From positions 36,172 to 100,171 of the IMG/VR virus record IMGVR_UViG_3300046779_001754: DNA of 64,000 nucleotides; one strand, 5' to 3'. The stretch's first letter is position 1. Every line of letters begins with the position of its first letter. Of this stretch, positions 47,569 to 52,519 are shown one piece after another. The notes under the pieces were generated by a model. The model did no database searches. It was not told the DNA's origin and saw only the letters and a program-made list of their open reading frames with translations. Source of the stretch: a virus. Position numbers and translations under genes: made by a program.

Positions 47569-49332
47569 ATGATCAATATCAGCAAACTTACAGTTCGAAA
47601 CTTTATGAGTGTGGGCAATGCTACACAGGCAGTTAATTTTGATCGTCGTGATTTAACCCTTGTTCTTGGAGAAAATCTAGATCTTGGCGGGGATGGTGCC
47701 AGAAATGGCACTGGTAAAACCACAATTATCAATGCTCTAAGTTTTGCACTCTACGGTCAGGCTTTGACTAACATACGCAAAGACAATCTTGTCAATAAAA
47801 CCAACAACAAAAATATGTTAGTGAGCTTGGAGTTTTCAATTGACAACAAAAATTATCGCATTGAACGCGGGCGTAAACCCAATATTCTAAAGCTCTATGT
47901 TGACAACGAACAGCAAGTAGATCGTGACGAGTCGCAAGGTGACAGTCGCGAAACACAGGATGAAATTGAACGTATGTTGGGATTGAGCCATGACATGTTT
48001 CGACATGTTGTTGCATTGAATACCTACACTGAGCCGTTTCTAAGTCTCAAGGCCAACGATCAGCGAACTATTATTGAACAATTGCTGGGTATAACTTTAC
48101 TAAGTGAACGTGCTGAACGTATCAAAGAATACAACAAACAAACCAAAGACAGTATTCAACAAGAAGAATTTCGCATACGTGCAACACAAGATGCCAACAA
48201 ACGAATTGAAGAACAGATTGCCAGCTTACAAAAACGTGCATTGCTATGGGACAACAAAAAAACCGAAGATGTTACCAAACTTCAAACTGCTGTCAACAGT
48301 CTAGAACACATAGACATCGATGCCGAAGTACAAGCACACCGAGACCTAGAAGCGTTTCATGGCAAGAAAAAGATTATTGATGAATGCAATCGCTGGATAC
48401 GTCAAATTGATCAAGATGATGCCAAGTTAATAAAACAATCTGAACAATATCAACGTGATCTAGCTGACATGGAAGATCACAAATGTTTTGCCTGTGGCAC
48501 TGTGGTACACGACGACAGTCTTGATGCTGTTAAACAACAACGCCTAACTCAGCTCAAAGAGCTGGCACTACAAATATTAACCAACGACACTCAACGCCAT
48601 GAACATCTAAATGAGATAGATGATCAAGGCGAATTGGGCATTGCGCCCACAGTGTTCTACGACGATATCGAACAGGCTCTAAATCATCGCAATAGTCTAG
48701 AAACTCTGCGGCGCGAACTTGCTACAAGATCTACCGAAGTCAACCCTTACACCGATCAAATCAGTGAGATGCAATCACAGGCTCTGCAAGAAATCAGCTA
48801 TGATCACCTCAATGAACTTACTAGACTACAAGATCATCAAGACTTTTTACTAAAACTACTCACACAAAAAGATTCGTTTATACGCAAGAAGATCATTGAG
48901 CAAAATTTGAGCTATCTCAATGCAAGACTAACACACTACTTGGATAGAATTGGATTACCTCATACAGTTACATTCCAAAACGATCTCACAGTGGAAATTA
49001 CTGAACTTGGTCGTGAACTAGATTTTGATAATCTAAGTCGCGGTGAACGCAATCGCTTAATTCTATCAATGAGCTGGGCGTTTCGTGATGTGTGGGAAAG
49101 TCTGTATCGTCCGATCAATGTGTTGTTTATTGATGAAATGATTGACTCAGGCATGGATACTCAAGGTGTAGAAAACAGTCTGGCACTTTTGAAGAAGATG
49201 ACTCGTGAACGTCACAAGAGTATTTGGTTGATTAGTCACCGAGATGAACTTGCAGGACGTGTTGAAAATATACTTCGTGTTGTCAAAGAAAACGGTTTCA
49301 CTAGTTATAACTCGGACGTAGACACTGTATGA
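47569..49332 (+). CDS. gp46: Recombination ATPase gp46 (SbcC/Rad50-like)
   Basis: Walker A NGTGKTT, zinc hook CFAC, signature LSRGE, Walker B LFIDE, ISH. The second Met is taken as the start. Confidence 0.94.
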   Translation: MINISKLTVRNFMSVGNATQAVNFDRRDLTLVLGENLDLGGDGARNGTGKTTIINALSFALYGQALTNIRKDNLVNKTNNKNMLVSLEFSIDNKNYRIERGRKPNILKLYVDNEQQVDRDESQGDSRETQDEIERMLGLSHDMFRHVVALNTYTEPFLSLKANDQRTIIEQLLGITLLSERAERIKEYNKQTKDSIQQEEFRIRATQDANKRIEEQIASLQKRALLWDNKKTEDVTKLQTAVNSLEHIDIDAEVQAHRDLEAFHGKKKIIDECNRWIRQIDQDDAKLIKQSEQYQRDLADMEDHKCFACGTVVHDDSLDAVKQQRLTQLKELALQILTNDTQRHEHLNEIDDQGELGIAPTVFYDDIEQALNHRNSLETLRRELATRSTEVNPYTDQISEMQSQALQEISYDHLNELTRLQDHQDFLLKLLTQKDSFIRKKIIEQNLSYLNARLTHYLDRIGLPHTVTFQNDLTVEITELGRELDFDNLSRGERNRLILSMSWAFRDVWESLYRPINVLFIDEMIDSGMDTQGVENSLALLKKMTRERHKSIWLISHRDELAGRVENILRVVKENGFTSYNSDVDTV

Positions 49333-50342
49333 AACTAGCAACTTGGCACTGGCACATAGAAATATCTAGCAAATGTACTTTGCATTGTCCTCGCTGTGCC
49401 CGCCAAGAAGTTCCTGATACTTTAGTAAACACCGAACTTGACATAGAATTCTTCTGGCGTAACTTTCCCGAGGATTTTATCATTGAGCATGTTGATAAAA
49501 TTACATTTTGCGGTGATGATGGTGACCCTATCTATGCACACGACTTAGTTGAAGTTGTGAAATATTTCAAAAACACCAAGCCCACAATTGAAATAGTGGT
49601 TGTTACCAATGGTAGCTACAAGTCCTCAACTTGGTGGGCCGGGTTGGCTCTTGTGCTTGATCAACAGGATTCGGTGCATTTCAGTATTGATGGCTATAAT
49701 CAAATCAGTAACGAGTTATATCGAGTCAACAGTGATTGGGATAGCATCCTAATGGGAATACGCACCTTGCGTCTACACAGCAAATGTCATATCATATGGG
49801 ACGCCATAGCATTTAGTTTTAACGAAGGATTTCTTGATGTCATGCGTCAACAGGCTCAGGACATGGGCATGGATCGATTTCAGCTGACCAAGAGCACAAA
49901 GTTTAGTAGGATATATCCAATCTACGGTGTCAATGACTTGCTAGAACCAAAGCAAGTAAATCTGATTAGTTCGTCAGAACGATTTGAGCGGGAAGTTACA
50001 GATTTTACCCAACGAGAAGTTCCCAGTTGGAATATCAATCAAGACTTATATCACTCAAGTCAAATCTATAATAATGTACGTCCCATGTGTTCGATAGGAA
50101 ACAAAGGACTGTATATCAGTGCGCAGGGGTATTTTTATCCTTGCTGCTGGGTAGCAAATCGCTATTCACATAATCACGATTGGGAAAAACTAAAACAACA
50201 GTTTGATCTTAATCAACGCAATTTACAGGATGTTTTAACAGATGAGTTTTGGTCTGGAGCATTTACCAATTTCAACTGGCGAGAGTGTCAAACCAAATGT
50301 TCAGCTGGCTTAGTCACAGAAGATTATGCTTCGCAATGGTAG
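49329..50342 (+). CDS. Radical SAM protein with C-terminal SPASM/twitch domain
   Basis: CTLHCPRC, CGDDGDP, VTNGS; C-terminal YPCCW...CQTKC. Confidence 0.88.
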   Translation: MKLATWHWHIEISSKCTLHCPRCARQEVPDTLVNTELDIEFFWRNFPEDFIIEHVDKITFCGDDGDPIYAHDLVEVVKYFKNTKPTIEIVVVTNGSYKSSTWWAGLALVLDQQDSVHFSIDGYNQISNELYRVNSDWDSILMGIRTLRLHSKCHIIWDAIAFSFNEGFLDVMRQQAQDMGMDRFQLTKSTKFSRIYPIYGVNDLLEPKQVNLISSSERFEREVTDFTQREVPSWNINQDLYHSSQIYNNVRPMCSIGNKGLYISAQGYFYPCCWVANRYSHNHDWEKLKQQFDLNQRNLQDVLTDEFWSGAFTNFNWRECQTKCSAGLVTEDYASQW

Positions 50343-50358
50343 GAGATAATTATGCTGT

Positions 50359-50793
50359 ATGTCTTGGCTTTTTGAATCCAACCTAGTTGAAAATTTACCT
50401 GAAGATTGTGCAGGATTTGTATATTGCATCACAAACAGGATCACAGGCAGAAAATACATAGGCAAAAAACTGGCACGATTTAAACGAACAACTTATAAAG
50501 TAGTAAAACTTAAAAACGGTAACAAAAAGCGCAAAAAAATTCGTGGATCAGTGGATTCAGATTGGCAAACATACTACGGCTCATCACCAGAACTTCTCAA
50601 AGACGTTGAACAATTAGGCTCACAAAATTTCTCACGCGAAATCCTATACTATTGCAAAACCAAAGCGGAATGCAGTTATATAGAGGCTCGTGAACAATTT
50701 GCAAGACGTGTACTGGAATCCGATGACTACTACAATGGTCACATTCAGGTACGTGTACATGGCTCTCACATCAAAGGCAAACTAAGCAGTTAA
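50359..50793 (+). CDS. Minimal GIY-YIG endonuclease (144 aa)
   Basis: GFVYCITNRITGRKYIGKK, YYGSS, FSREIL, conserved Glu (YIEARE) and YYN. Confidence 0.88.
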   Translation: MSWLFESNLVENLPEDCAGFVYCITNRITGRKYIGKKLARFKRTTYKVVKLKNGNKKRKKIRGSVDSDWQTYYGSSPELLKDVEQLGSQNFSREILYYCKTKAECSYIEAREQFARRVLESDDYYNGHIQVRVHGSHIKGKLSS

Positions 50794-50796
50794 GGC

Positions 50797-51140
50797 TAGC
50801 ACAGGCTAAAATCGTGTGCCCTGGACCTGGATCTCGGATCGCAGGGATGGAAGACTCACCGCGCTAGTGAGCACTCAACTACTACCCCCCGGGATGAAGA
50901 TCGCAAACGCCGCGATTTAGTTGTTTGAAAAGGATAAAGGCTGAAAAGACGCATGAGCGATCATGCACGTTTGTTAGTAAGGACTAGCATCTTACAAATA
51001 AACCGCCGTTGTATAAAGACGGAGCTCGAGGTACCGGACAACCGCCTCTGTAATGCTCTAATGCTAGTGACTGTGCTACTCGGATGATGTAGACTTTTTT
51101 TCTTTGCCCGCCCTGGGCAAAGTATGACTGCTTTATCTGG
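50797..51140 (+). ncRNA. Candidate large structured non-coding RNA (family unassigned)
   Basis: No annotated ORF. 8-bp helix 50797-804/51071-78 encloses at least 8 nested stems, a GNRA-capped hairpin and an 8-bp pseudoknot; a further stem-loop domain spans 51081-51139. Confidence 0.7.
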
Positions 51141-51162
51141 ATGATATATCTTCTAAAAACAA

Positions 51163-51205
51163 TGTTGATGAGCGATAGCGAATCAACAGATGACGTTAGT
51201 CATCT
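51163..51205. other. Two tandem hairpins between convergent transcription units
   Basis: TGTTGAT/ATCAACA enclosing GAGCGATAGCGA, then AGATGAC-GTTA-GTCATCT. Confidence 0.5.
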
Positions 51206-52194
51206 TATAAAGGATGTTTATTCTTCTCTAACAATGGATAGAGTTTGTTTGTATTGTTTGGAAAATGAATCAATTGCCAATTGCGAATGTTTAAATTGTG
51301 TTGGTATATTAGACGATGTTGTATAATTGCTTCTTGTAGTATGGTCAATCGTGGTAAAGGATAATTCCATCCACGAACAATAGCAGTTACAATATGGTCT
51401 ATGTTGTCAGAAAAAGTAATCATGGGTTGTTGTATACCTTGCCATTGGCGATATATCTTTCTCCAGTGGTTTAGTCTTGATCTGTCTACAGACTCGTTGA
51501 TATAGTCAAGGCATTGTATTACTGTGTTTTCACCATCGCTCCATAATTCTCTACAGTTGATCCAGAGATGATCTCCATTGAAATCTAAGAATTTATTGTC
51601 CAAGTGATATTGGTCCAATTGAAGATTCAACGCCAGTATTTCTCGTTGATCCCATATTTCTGTATACTGGTTAAACTTTTCAGCAAAATATGTTCGGTGA
51701 AAAGTTTCAAAATTATGCTCGTTGTCCCGAGCCAACGACAGTGCTTGATACGTGACCAGTGATTGATCAGCAGCTATGAATATCAATGGCATGGATCGTT
51801 GGTATATGTCAGTAACTATTTTTGAAAAATCAATCTCGCTGGTAGTGATCAACCAATTTATTATGTCTTTGCTGTGATAGTCAGTGATGTTGATATCCAG
51901 TGCCCTGGCACAGGTTGCAATGTCTACAGGACTAGGATAACAGCTATGAAATCGTTCAGTAGCGGTTTCTAGCAAAGTGTCAACGGTGTTGCAATAGCTA
52001 CCGTGTCCTTCGGGATGATTCTTGGGATGTTGGTGTGCGTTGGACCGGGTTAGAGGGTTGCTGGGCAATTCCAGCCATTGCTGCTGCTCAACGTTGTATA
52101 CAGAGTTGACTCCGGCCAACCAGTTGATGCTCCAATCTAAAAAAGTAGCACCTACTTGACCTATGCTGGTCACACAAACTACTTTAGATGTCAT
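51205..52194 (-). CDS. Hypothetical protein, probable paralog of 44870-45760
   Basis: Start reassigned to MTSKVV (52194), overlapping the upstream stop. QVGATFLDWSI aligns with AYGTYVEWCL, and QEAIIQHRL with SEAWLQWQL. Confidence 0.65.
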   Translation of the reverse strand: MTSKVVCVTSIGQVGATFLDWSINWLAGVNSVYNVEQQQWLELPSNPLTRSNAHQHPKNHPEGHGSYCNTVDTLLETATERFHSCYPSPVDIATCARALDINITDYHSKDIINWLITTSEIDFSKIVTDIYQRSMPLIFIAADQSLVTYQALSLARDNEHNFETFHRTYFAEKFNQYTEIWDQREILALNLQLDQYHLDNKFLDFNGDHLWINCRELWSDGENTVIQCLDYINESVDRSRLNHWRKIYRQWQGIQQPMITFSDNIDHIVTAIVRGWNYPLPRLTILQEAIIQHRLIYQHNLNIRNWQLIHFPNNTNKLYPLLEKNKHPL

Positions 52195-52519
52195 CGGGCC
52201 AGTCTCTAAACAGGGCGTGTTGTATGTTGCCTGACACAAACTGATTGAAGCTACGATGCTTGTCTTCGAGTTCGCCCTGAAGTGGGGCAACTCTCTTAAA
52301 TGCCTGCTCCATGTGTGCCATGTCACGAAATTCCATCAGGATCATCCACTCAGGCATGTTGGGTATACTACGAAATCCCATTTTACAACGTGTGATTCTG
52401 TAGCCAAGCATCTTGTCCTCCTGTACTAGATGATCAAAAAAGCTTTTCATGTTTGTGACCCAGTCAAGGTCAGATATGTCGCCTTCTTTGTCGGCCCATA
52501 TAGTGTATAAGTCTGCCAT
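52184..52519 (-). CDS. Small alpha/beta-barrel-like protein (DUF6614-like)
   Basis: DLYTIW...YRITRCKMGF...EWMILMEF...ALFRDWPD pattern, recognised from memory. Confidence 0.5.
   Translation of the reverse strand: MADLYTIWADKEGDISDLDWVTNMKSFFDHLVQEDKMLGYRITRCKMGFRSIPNMPEWMILMEFRDMAHMEQAFKRVAPLQGELEDKHRSFNQFVSGNIQHALFRDWPDDI

What the first reader, a model, noticed from the sequence alone, without database searches (positions are those of the whole stretch)
50797..51078. Architecture of the ~280-nt candidate RNA core: closing helix, multibranch domains, 8-bp pseudoknot
Pairings read by hand. Closing helix: TAGCACAG 50797-804 / CTGTGCTA 51071-78. Inner stems: CCCTG 50819-23 / CAGGG 50842-46 around GATC-TCG-GATC; CTCAC 50855-59 / GTGAG 50867-71; CAACTA 50876-81 / TAGTTG 50918-23 around ATCGC/GCGAT; GCATGA-GCGA-TCATGC 50951-66 (GNRA loop); GTTTGTT 50969-75 / AATAAAC 50997-51003 extended by GTAAG/CTTAC. 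The loop of that last stem, ACTAGCAT 50983-90, is perfectly complementary to ATGCTAGT 51061-68, forming a pseudoknot. Also GAGC/GCTC and GAGG/CCTC around CGG-ACAA-CCG (51022-58). The G-U pairs and GNRA loop favour a plus-strand RNA. This complexity is typical of ribozymes or large ncRNAs, but I could not see group I/II intron, RNase P or tmRNA signatures.
Basis: seen in the sequence. Interest (0 to 1): 0.82.

Follow-up and report, generated by a model that had tools for sequence, protein, structure and literature searches.

The report
Full-length Polynucleobacter-1 twin-box phage RNA
The stretch is a real, knotted non-coding RNA of an uncultured T4-like freshwater phage, but its core was already catalogued in 2010 as the orphan "Polynucleobacter-1" motif.

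Summary
Window 50794-50926 (+) matches Rfam RF01718 (Polynucleobacter-1) at 115.6 bits (cut-off 37).

Three of its elements fail:
- the 8-bp closing helix
- the outer CCCTG/CAGGG register
- the CGG-ACAA-CCG hairpin, which a covarying long-range helix (51005-12/51038-45) replaces, giving a further pseudoknot

The RNA runs on to about 51205. The 3' part holds a conserved hairpin whose two strands each have a covarying alternative partner upstream. It also holds one 7-nt word (GGAUGAU) present twice, identical in 108/108 copies, and two terminal hairpins.

In phages the RNA always follows a 144-aa GIY-YIG gene downstream of gp47/gp46. In bacterial islands it sits divergent from a DUF6641 gene, so the nuclease is a neighbour rather than an obligate partner.

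Function is unknown. My best guess is a trans-acting RNA scaffold that shows one word twice. Earlier agents of this scan reported the same RNA on other genomes. Verdict: a real RNA, a new member of a known orphan family.

The parts
50794..51205 (+). Whole non-coding RNA, about 412 nt (full-length Polynucleobacter-1 'twin-box' RNA)
   Evidence: Conserved end to end right after the stop codon in phage homologues. No conserved ORF. G.U 653 against A.C 187 in paired cells.
50794..50926 (+). 5' domain, the Rfam RF01718 match
   Evidence: 115.6 bits against a gathering score of 37, E 1e-25, model positions 1-141.
50794..50807 (+). PK0: GGC 50794-96 pairs with GCU 50805-07 inside the P1 loop, a small 5' pseudoknot
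   Evidence: Pair 50795-50806 is GC 80 / AU 26.
50799..50819 (+). P1 local hairpin, GCACA 50799-803 with UGUGC 50815-19.
   Evidence: All 5 pairs change on both sides; 98.9% of cells paired.
50827..50844 (+). P2 hairpin, CUG+GAUC 50827-33 with GAUC+CAG 50837-44
   Evidence: Rfam register. U28-A43 is UA 75/CG 7/AU 3; pair 50832-38 is UA 42/CG 40.
50853..50872 (+).
   Evidence: All pairs change on both sides.
50876..50923 (+). P4 long-range helix 50876-81/50918-23. It encloses C82-G96 with CC/GG 50886-87/50892-93, and the hairpin 50899-904/50912-17.
   Evidence: Strongest covariation of the RNA: 50880-50919 is CG 70/UA 19/AU 18, and 50879-50920 is CG 59/UA 46.
50951..50966 (+). P5 hairpin with GCGA (GNRA) loop
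   Evidence: Stem sequence differs freely among homologues and still pairs.
50969..51003 (+). P6 long hairpin (50969-75/50997-51003 and 50977-81/50991-95). Its loop is the 5' strand of PK1.
   Evidence: 12 of 12 pairs change on both sides, with many G.U.
50983..51068 (+). PK1 pseudoknot: ACUAGCAU 50983-90 with AUGCUAGU 51061-68
   Evidence: 94.3% of cells paired and 7 of 8 pairs change on both sides. It is the 7-bp SS_cons_1 of the 2010 alignment.
51005..51045 (+). Helix H: GCCGUUGU 51005-12 with ACAACCGC 38-45.
   Evidence: U10-A40 is UA 74/CG 34; G11-C39 is GC 78/AU 25/GU 5; 99.5% of cells paired.
51022..51058 (+). P8 GAGC 51022-25/GCUC 51055-58 and P9 GAGG 51028-31/CCUC 51045-48, around the invariant GGUACCGG..ACCGCC
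   Evidence: 51022-58 is GC 51/CG 35/UA 6/AU 5; 51024-56 is GC 71/AU 26.
51014..51019 (+). X: UAAAGA, the alternative partner of the 5' strand of the Y-Z hairpin
   Evidence: X:Y is 89% paired, covariation 0.278 against 0.164 in shuffles (0/500). 51015-51105 is AU 63/UA 15/GC 8, and 51015 has the same letter as 51119.
51073..51094 (+). Twin unit A: variable stem S (51073-79/51089-94 in this window) around ACUC 51078-81 plus word 1, GGAUGAU 51082-88
   Evidence: The word equals word 2 in 108/108 copies. The pair closing the loop is C-G in 99/108. The stem was read by eye and is poorly alignable.
51102..51122 (+). Y-Z hairpin: CUUUGCCC / GGGCAAAG, followed by the conserved G-N-N-UGAC (51122-28)
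   Evidence: 98% of cells paired; U05-A19 is UA 67/AU 18/CG 8. No U-tract follows, and the terminator scan does not call it.
51135..51145 (+). Twin unit B: AUCU 51135-38 plus word 2, GGAUGAU 51139-45
   Evidence: Columns 51082=51139, 51083=51140, 51086=51143 and 51088=51145 are 100% identical while each varies.
51164..51187 (+). P10 hairpin: GUUGAU/AUCAAC with tandem GA/GA, a 2-bp GC stem and a tetraloop (GAGCGAUAGCGAA)
   Evidence: 51167-84, 51168-83 and 51169-82 are the top covarying pairs of alignment A4. The inner pairs are GC 92/AU 8 and CG 90/UA 10.
51188..51205 (+). P11 terminal hairpin AGAUGAC-GUUA-GUCAUCU, the probable 3' end. It abuts the stop of the convergent gene 51205-52326 (-).
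   Evidence: Covarying pairs in the MI scan. My fixed column register mis-scores it at 39% paired, so support is moderate.
50359..50793 (+). Neighbour gene: 144-aa protein that is only a SegE-type GIY-YIG domain (phrog_447)
   Evidence: PF19835, E 2e-33; phrog_447. It lies upstream of the RNA in essentially all phage loci.

Best explanation
SHOWN. Window 50794 to about 51205 (+) is one free-standing structured non-coding RNA gene. It is a full-length member of the orphan Polynucleobacter-1 family: the RF01718 5' domain, the published tail with pseudoknot, and an uncatalogued 3' module. It has at least three pseudoknots. It occurs in many uncultured T4-like phages, at the end of the gp47-gp46-(variable)-GIY-YIG gene row, and also in bacterial genomic islands.

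INFERRED. It most likely acts in trans as a folded RNA scaffold or decoy, not as a cis regulator and not as a guide for the GIY-YIG nuclease. Its 3' module shows the same 7-nt word twice (51082-88 and 51139-45) to one reader, either a two-site or dimeric protein or a nucleic acid. The Y-Z hairpin between the two words can trade its strands with an upstream partner: GCC 51005-07 plus UAAAGA 51014-19. This would give two states that change how the module is displayed.

My odds: real RNA of this family, 0.95. The trans-scaffold, twin-site-reader mechanism, about 0.3.
For: Family: 115.6 bits to RF01718. The tail helices and 7-bp pseudoknot match SS_cons and SS_cons_1 of the 2010 seed. One seed sequence carries the same GIY-YIG C-terminus upstream (EQFSRRVLESEEYYNGHIQVRVHGSHI, my translation of the flank shown).

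Structure: 84 pairs are 93.2% paired, 65 pairs change on both sides, and the covariation score is 0.404 against 0.163 in shuffles (0/500) and 0.05-0.08 when the partners are slid. G.U 653 against A.C 187.

Not cis-regulatory: the gene after the RNA is on the + strand in 57 loci and the - strand in 59, from several families.

Independent of the nuclease:
- In 12 of 16 bacterial hits the RNA is divergent from a DUF6641 gene, in islands with integrase and Fic. DUF6641 is unrelated to GIY-YIG.
- Relatives of the protein in 496 cultured phages carry no such RNA where tested.
- The word is uncoupled from protein similarity.

Twin words: identical in 108/108 copies, 8 words. The rule also holds, with other words, in bacterial copies and in a divergent variant.

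Two states: the Y-Z hairpin and the alternative helix both covary at the same Y and Z positions.
Against: No transcript ends, no binding partner and no phenotype are known. Contigs of relatives in one RNA library cover the conserved parts, but this does not show transcription.

The three-way covariation could instead reflect a folding intermediate, base triples or pairing between molecules.

In phages the RNA starts directly after the stop codon with no promoter match, so there it may simply be the 3' end of the operon transcript. The near-obligate link to the GIY-YIG gene in phages still allows a functional tie in that lineage.
Confidence: 0.5

Rival explanations
1. Nuclease-RNA system. The RNA is the partner of the domain-only GIY-YIG nuclease encoded just upstream, as guide, activator or inhibitor, forming a ribonucleoprotein.
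For: The gene is 3-90 nt upstream of the RNA in essentially every phage locus that has room upstream, whether found through the protein or through the RNA. The protein is only a catalytic domain with no DNA-binding domain. Even the divergent RNA variant keeps the position behind this gene.
Against: Bacterial copies lie beside DUF6641, not GIY-YIG. Homologues of the protein in cyanophages, Melnitz and phiM7 have no such RNA. There is no long variable guide-like segment. The twin word is shared by proteins only 52% identical, and it differs between proteins 94.7% identical. The whole gp47-gp46 neighbourhood is syntenic, so adjacency may reflect inheritance.
Confidence: 0.12
2. Cis-acting 3' element. 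A riboswitch-like core whose X:Y (anti-hairpin) versus Y:Z (hairpin) choice controls termination, read-through into the convergent genes, or stability of the operon mRNA.
For: Mutually exclusive helices, both with covariation, are the hallmark of expression platforms. The RNA sits at the end of a transcription unit facing convergent genes in this window. The core is large, with invariant unpaired nucleotides.
Against: The Y-Z hairpin has no U-tract and is not called as a terminator. About 85 more conserved nucleotides follow it. Downstream genes vary in family and strand. In bacteria both neighbours point away from or against the RNA.
Confidence: 0.12
3. Processed RNA. The two identical words are cleavage or recognition sites of one sequence-specific endoribonuclease, or of the RNA's own catalytic core. 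Cutting would release or clamp the hairpin piece of about 50 nt, as type III antitoxin repeats are cut by their toxin.
For: Identity of two sites that change in step is what one shared reader or cutter predicts. Spacing is constrained to 47-61 nt. Both words follow a fixed 4-nt handle, ACUC or AUCU.
Against: No match to any ribozyme or antitoxin family in Rfam. There is no cleavage evidence. The repeated unit is only about 22 nt and weakly alike outside the word. No candidate ribonuclease gene is linked.
Confidence: 0.1
4. DNA-level element. The twin words are direct repeats of a small inserted or recombining DNA module (target-site duplication, recombinase core or nuclease site), and only part of the region works as RNA.
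For: Direct repeats flanking a GC-rich inverted repeat look like a small insertion. Nuclease or integrase genes lie nearby.
Against: The module is at the same place in all copies, with none lacking it. The hairpin inside it covaries with the RNA core. The flanking P10 and P11 covary as RNA. G.U pairs dominate.
Confidence: 0.04
5. One reading: a closed 280-nt multibranch domain held by the 8-bp helix 50797-804/51071-78.
For: The two 8-mers are perfectly complementary in this window and are part of the single-sequence minimum-energy fold. 71% of cells can pair across homologues.
Against: No compensation: when the 5' strand changes (A to G in 29 sequences, A to C in 21), the local P1 partner changes with it and the distal strand does not. 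Covariation equals the shuffles. Both strands have better-supported local partners, P1 and stem S. About 0.7 such 8-mers are expected by chance.
Confidence: 0.04

Closest known systems
Polynucleobacter-1 RNA motif (Rfam RF01718; Weinberg et al. 2010, Genome Biol 11:R31, PMC2864571)
   Same: The 5' 133 nt score 115.6 bits. P1-P4, the tail hairpins P5 and P6, P8/P9 and the 7-bp pseudoknot are the ones drawn in the 2010 seed alignment. The context is the same: downstream of the GOS11034 gene, which is this GIY-YIG protein. The habitat is also the same (fresh water, Burkholderiales).
   Different: The Rfam model holds only 141 positions. The 2010 structure draws a CGG/CCG hairpin where 108 sequences now support helix H. 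It lacks PK0, the X/Y/Z alternative pairing, the twin words, P10 and P11, and it marked the Y-Z hairpin only as a predicted terminator. The paper found no copy in a purified phage; this copy lies in a 100-kb viral contig.
Large orphan structured RNAs of phages and mobile elements (GOLLD, ROOL, HEARO/omega RNA); from my own knowledge, not tested here
   Same: Several hundred nucleotides long, multi-pseudoknotted, carried by phages and islands, found by comparative genomics, and often next to a nuclease or recombinase gene.
   Different: No sequence or model match to any of them. No variable guide segment like that of omega RNA. Multimer formation was not tested.
Riboswitch expression platforms and the T-box leader; a mechanistic analogy only
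   Same: Two mutually exclusive helices that both covary. Short words displayed on single strands or loops that could pair with a trans nucleic acid.
   Different: No Rfam hit to T-box or any riboswitch even at E up to 10. No U-tract terminator and no regulated downstream gene.
Type III toxin-antitoxin RNA repeats (ToxI-like); a mechanistic analogy only, from my own knowledge
   Same: An identical short site recurs at unit borders, which would explain why the words change in step if one nuclease reads both.
   Different: There are only two units, about 22 nt long and weakly alike. They are embedded in a 400-nt knotted RNA, and no ToxN-like gene is nearby.

Membership tests
Polynucleobacter-1 RNA (RF01718) | Covariance-model score at or above the curated gathering score (37 bits) over the whole model | tested here: met
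   115.6 bits, E 1e-25, model positions 1-141 of 141, not truncated.
Polynucleobacter-1 RNA (RF01718) | Hairpins P1, P2 and P3, and the long-range P4 enclosing two hairpins, kept by compensatory change | tested here: met
   Helices 2-9 are 83-100% paired, and most pairs change on both sides.
Polynucleobacter-1 RNA (RF01718) | 3' 'tail' of the original alignment: two hairpins, a nested helix pair and a 7-bp pseudoknot from the second hairpin's loop | tested here: met
   SS_cons and SS_cons_1 map onto P5, P6, P8/P9 and PK1, all of which covary. Only the innermost CGG/CCG hairpin is replaced by helix H.
Polynucleobacter-1 RNA (RF01718) | Lies downstream of a GOS11034-family gene (Weinberg 2010 supplement) | tested here: met
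   The flank of seed JCVI_SCAF_1101668145292 translates to the C-terminus of the same GIY-YIG protein. The gene is upstream in nearly all phage loci.
Group I / group II intron, RNase P RNA, tmRNA, tRNA | Match to the family's covariance model, or ARAGORN detection | tested here: not met
   No such match even at E up to 10 in 49000-52500. ARAGORN finds no genes in the window.
T-box or other riboswitch | Match to a riboswitch model; an aptamer followed by a terminator or an SD-sequestering helix upstream of a regulated gene | tested here: not met
   No Rfam match. The Y-Z hairpin lacks a U-tract. Downstream genes vary in strand and family.
RNA-guided nuclease system (omega RNA / guide RNA type) | A scaffold plus a hypervariable guide segment of about 12-20 nt; obligate linkage to one nuclease family | tested here: not met
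   The only step-changing segments are 7-nt words with 8 states in phages. The linkage breaks in bacterial copies and in cultured-phage homologues of the protein.
Self-cleaving ribozyme classes | Match to a known class; cleavage in vitro | tested here: inconclusive
   No Rfam match. Catalysis cannot be tested with these tools.

The most novel reading that the evidence does not exclude
The two identical 7-nt words would be trans-pairing (kissing or specifier-like) sites that bind two copies, or two alternative positions, of one nucleic-acid partner. Candidates are a tRNA anticodon loop or a short DNA core shared by two duplexes. The X/Y/Z strand exchange would pass that binding on to the RNA core. 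This would be a new kind of mobile-element RNA sensor or bridge. The family-wide word pattern R-NNN-R-A-N (a triplet followed by a purine) is compatible with this reading but is only numerology so far.
Probability: 0.06. Interest if true: 0.85.

Novelty: new member of a known kind. Interest (0 to 1): 0.45.

Why it matters
Polynucleobacter-1 has been an orphan since 2010, and Rfam holds only its first third.

This copy and its several hundred phage relatives add five things:
- The family is a roughly 410-nt RNA of abundant freshwater T4-like phages as well as bacterial islands.
- The published secondary structure needs a correction: helix H in place of the CGG/CCG hairpin.
- The 3' hairpin has a covarying alternative partner.
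- Two 7-nt words are kept identical through repeated change.
- The adjacent nuclease is probably not the partner.

Such ornate, widespread RNAs have in the past turned out to be ribozymes, guide scaffolds or RNA-only assemblies, so a testable model is useful.

Tried and rejected
1. DNA search of 50,697 cultured-phage records with the RNA: no match.

2. Rfam scans behind the homologous gene in Melnitz, a cyanophage and phiM7: only tRNAs.

3. Single-sequence folding: z = 0.00 on the + strand and -0.39 on the - strand, so it is uninformative.

4. RNA libraries: only one run held a small share of the words. Its contigs are from relatives (mostly under 95% alike) and cover 50755-50871 and 50989-51105, but contigs in an RNA library do not show transcription, ends or strand. 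Parts without cover mean nothing.

5. A cis partner for the twin words. The best candidate, GUUGUUU 50920-26, pairs only by wobble and does not compensate C at word position 2 or A/G at position 7. There is no third copy or reverse complement within 2.5 kb either side.

6. Translational bypass (take-off and landing codons). The open frame before word 1 has a median of 7 codons and a stop follows word 2, so this is rejected.

7. Both words as clean hairpin loops. Minimum-energy folds of the isolated units rarely leave the word unpaired (16/108 and 1/108), so this is not established.

8. GIY-YIG protein as reader of the word: no coupling.

9. DUF6641 as a distant GIY-YIG relative: no.

10. Promoter scans: none before the RNA in the window or in the Polynucleobacter copy.

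12. My fixed-column scoring of P11 failed because of an alignment offset. The MI scan supports the hairpin.

13. No covariance model of the whole RNA was built. I expected a model of about 410 positions to exceed the calibration-time limit stated in the tool description, so I did not try.

Full report
WHAT IS THERE

A scan of the window against Rfam gives one match above threshold: 50794-50926 (+) is Polynucleobacter-1 RNA, RF01718. It scores 115.6 bits against a gathering score of 37, E 1e-25, and covers the whole 141-position model. At E up to 10, nothing else of note appears in 49000-52500: no intron, RNase P, tmRNA, riboswitch or ribozyme. ARAGORN finds no tRNA or tmRNA in the window.

The window is part of a 100-kb IMG/VR viral contig. 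The RNA starts directly after the TAA stop (50791-93) of a 144-aa ORF (50359-50793). That ORF is nothing but a SegE-type GIY-YIG domain (PF19835, E 2e-33; phrog_447). Upstream lie a radical-SAM gene, gp46 (SbcC/Rad50-like) and gp47 (SbcD/Mre11-like). Downstream genes converge on the RNA.

WHAT WAS ALREADY KNOWN

The family was described by Weinberg et al. 2010 (PMC2864571). The supplement says three things:
- The 3' half is not always detected.
- Most copies lie downstream of GOS11034-family genes.
- No copy was found in a purified phage.

The seed alignment draws P1-P4, two tail hairpins, a nested helix pair around a CGG/CCG hairpin, and a 7-bp pseudoknot (SS_cons_1) from the loop of the second tail hairpin.

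One seed sequence of our subtype carries, upstream, the C-terminus of the same GIY-YIG protein (my translation of the flank). GOS11034 is therefore this protein.

HOMOLOGUES

The protein has more than 587 relatives in IMG/VR. An RNA-first pattern search gave 120 further loci. With a profile, nearly every locus that has the gene and enough downstream sequence has the RNA, and nearly every RNA with room upstream has the gene 3-90 nt before it.

I aligned 108 copies, non-redundant at 96% identity (A2). I also aligned their 3' parts extended by 110 nt (A4, 104 sequences).

A structure of 84 pairs is 93.2% paired. In it, 65 pairs change on both sides. The covariation score is 0.404, against 0.163 in shuffles (0/500 reach it) and 0.05-0.08 when the partners are slid.

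Confirmed:
- CTCAC/GTGAG
- CAACTA/TAGTTG
- ATCGC/GCGAT
- the GNRA hairpin 50951-66
- the long hairpin 50969-51003
- GAGC/GCTC and GAGG/CCTC
- the pseudoknot 50983-90/51061-68. Natural variants include CUAGUAU/AUACUAG, CUGAUAU/AUAUCAG, UUAGCGU/ACGCUAA and UCACGU/ACGUGA.

- Closing helix. Its 5' strand belongs to the local P1 hairpin (50799-803/50815-19), where all five pairs compensate. The distal strand CTGTGCTA does not follow these changes.
- CCCTG/CAGGG. This is the wrong register; CUG 50827-29/CAG 50842-44 covaries.
- CGG-ACAA-CCG. It is invariant as a hairpin, but its "loop" covaries with UUGU 51009-12.

By simple count, about 0.7 perfect 8-bp complements are expected by chance in 300 nt. 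The 311-nt fold is no more stable than shuffles. The case for structure therefore rests on covariation. G.U outnumbers A.C 653 to 187 in paired cells, so the plus strand is the RNA.

CORRECTIONS AND ADDITIONS

1. Helix H, 51005-12/51038-45. U10-A40 is UA 74/CG 34 and G11-C39 is GC 78/AU 25/GU 5. RNAalifold predicts it independently. It crosses P8/P9, which gives a second pseudoknot.

2. A small 5' pseudoknot, GGC 50794-96 with GCU 50805-07. Pair 50795-50806 is GC 80/AU 26.

3. The RNA continues to about 51205. In order, the 3' part contains:
- a variable stem around ACUC+GGAUGAU (51078-88)
- a U-rich linker
- the conserved hairpin CUUUGCCC/GGGCAAAG (51102-22)
- GNNUGAC
- AUCU+GGAUGAU (51135-45)
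- in many relatives, but not in this window, a small UUC-loop hairpin
- hairpin P10 (51164-87), with tandem G.A and a tetraloop
- terminal hairpin P11 (51188-205), which abuts the stop of the convergent gene

4. Twin words. The 7-mer after ACUC equals the 7-mer after AUCU in 108/108 copies, although eight different words occur. Four columns vary and are 100% identical between the two sites. The rule holds with other words in bacterial copies (AGCGAAA, AGAGAAA, ACAUAAA, ACUUAAA, AUCAAAA). It also holds in a divergent RNA that replaces this one behind the same gene in three loci (ACAUGAA).

5. Three-way covariation. UAAAGA 51014-19 is complementary to the 5' strand of the 51102-22 hairpin. That pairing is 89% paired, with covariation 0.278 against 0.164 (0/500). 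Position 51015 always has the same letter as 51119. Likewise 51005 has the same letter as 51106 and pairs with 51118 (GC 95/AU 5). The hairpin and a long-range helix (GCC..UAAAGA with UCUUUG..GGC) are therefore alternatives, and both are kept by selection.

WHAT IT IS NOT

- Not coding. No frame is conserved up to word 1, and a stop follows word 2.
- Not a classical cis regulator. The next gene is on the + strand in 57 loci and the - strand in 59, from several families. The 51102-22 hairpin has no U-tract.
- Probably not the obligate partner of the GIY-YIG nuclease, for three reasons:
  - In bacterial contigs (Polynucleobacter and other Betaproteobacteria) the RNA lies about 200 nt from, and divergent to, a DUF6641 gene in 12 of 16 hits, in islands with an integrase, Fic and DUF6876. 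DUF6641 is unrelated to GIY-YIG.
  - The protein family is common in cultured cyanophages, Melnitz and phiM7 without this RNA.
  - The same word occurs with proteins only 52% identical, and different words occur with proteins 94.7% identical.

The phage-lineage adjacency is embedded in conserved gp47-gp46 synteny, so it can be inherited rather than functional.

HOW IT MOST LIKELY WORKS (inference)

The RNA keeps its architecture in two unrelated kinds of mobile element with different neighbours. It has many invariant unpaired nucleotides (for example GGUACCGG and ACCGCC). I therefore read it as a free-standing, trans-acting folded RNA.

The twin words need one reader that sees both sites. The strand exchange around the hairpin between the words would change how they are displayed.

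I put about 0.3 on this mechanism and 0.95 on the identity. The rivals (nuclease partner, cis switch, processing sites or ribozyme, DNA-level repeat) are listed with their tests.

EXPRESSION

One metatranscriptome holds contigs of relatives over the conserved parts. The tool states that this does not prove transcription.

EARLIER NOTES OF THIS SCAN

Agents on other genomes had already called this a "full-length Polynucleobacter-1 twin-box phage RNA" and judged the nuclease a neighbour. Their mention of twin boxes made me extend the region. I then verified the boxes, the pseudoknots and the bacterial context myself. I did not see helix H or the X/Y/Z alternative pairing in the summaries shown to me.

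VERDICT

It is a new member of a known orphan family, with useful structural corrections. Its function is unknown.

Noticed in passing
L019:3430-3900, L062:3430-3820, L077:3690-4150: Three phage loci carry, behind the same GIY-YIG gene, a different conserved non-coding element of about 380 nt. RF01718 does not detect it, yet it ends with the same module: ACUC+ACAUGAA, a GC-rich hairpin, GUCUGAC, AUCU+ACAUGAA, a GAGCG..AGCGAA hairpin and a terminal hairpin. It is probably a second type of this RNA.
   Followed up: partly
L230:1518-1991 (+), L248:2350-2787 (-), and 10 further genome loci: In bacterial contigs the RNA is divergently paired with a DUF6641 gene, in islands that also hold DUF6876, Fic and a tyrosine integrase. 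DUF6641 may be a better lead to function than the phage nuclease.
   Followed up: partly
window 50359-50793 and cultured-phage records (e.g. MT408532.1, NC_041929.1): This GIY-YIG family (phrog_447) is annotated as 'NAD synthetase' in hundreds of cyanophage records, which looks like a propagated misnomer. In one cyanophage the gene sits just before a tRNA cluster.
   Followed up: no
window 49329-50342: The slot between gp46 and the GIY-YIG gene is variable among relatives. It holds a radical SAM/SPASM-like gene here, other genes or none elsewhere, so it looks like a hot spot for gene insertion.
   Followed up: no
L004, L005, L007, L088, L087, L200 (alignment A2 columns about 400-470, between window positions 51054 and 51055): Some copies carry an expansion of 40-70 nt in the P8 end loop, built of repeated AUUAUAG-like units. 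This is a variable arm that the core tolerates.
   Followed up: no
window 50885 and 50895: There is strict non-Watson-Crick covariation (U with C in 68 copies, C with U in 40) inside the CACUAYCC..GGAYG internal loop of P4. It could be a tertiary or non-canonical pair, or two subfamilies.
   Followed up: no
window 50953-51087 (+): A 44-codon ORF ends at the UGA inside word 1. It is not conserved in relatives and is most likely spurious.
   Followed up: yes
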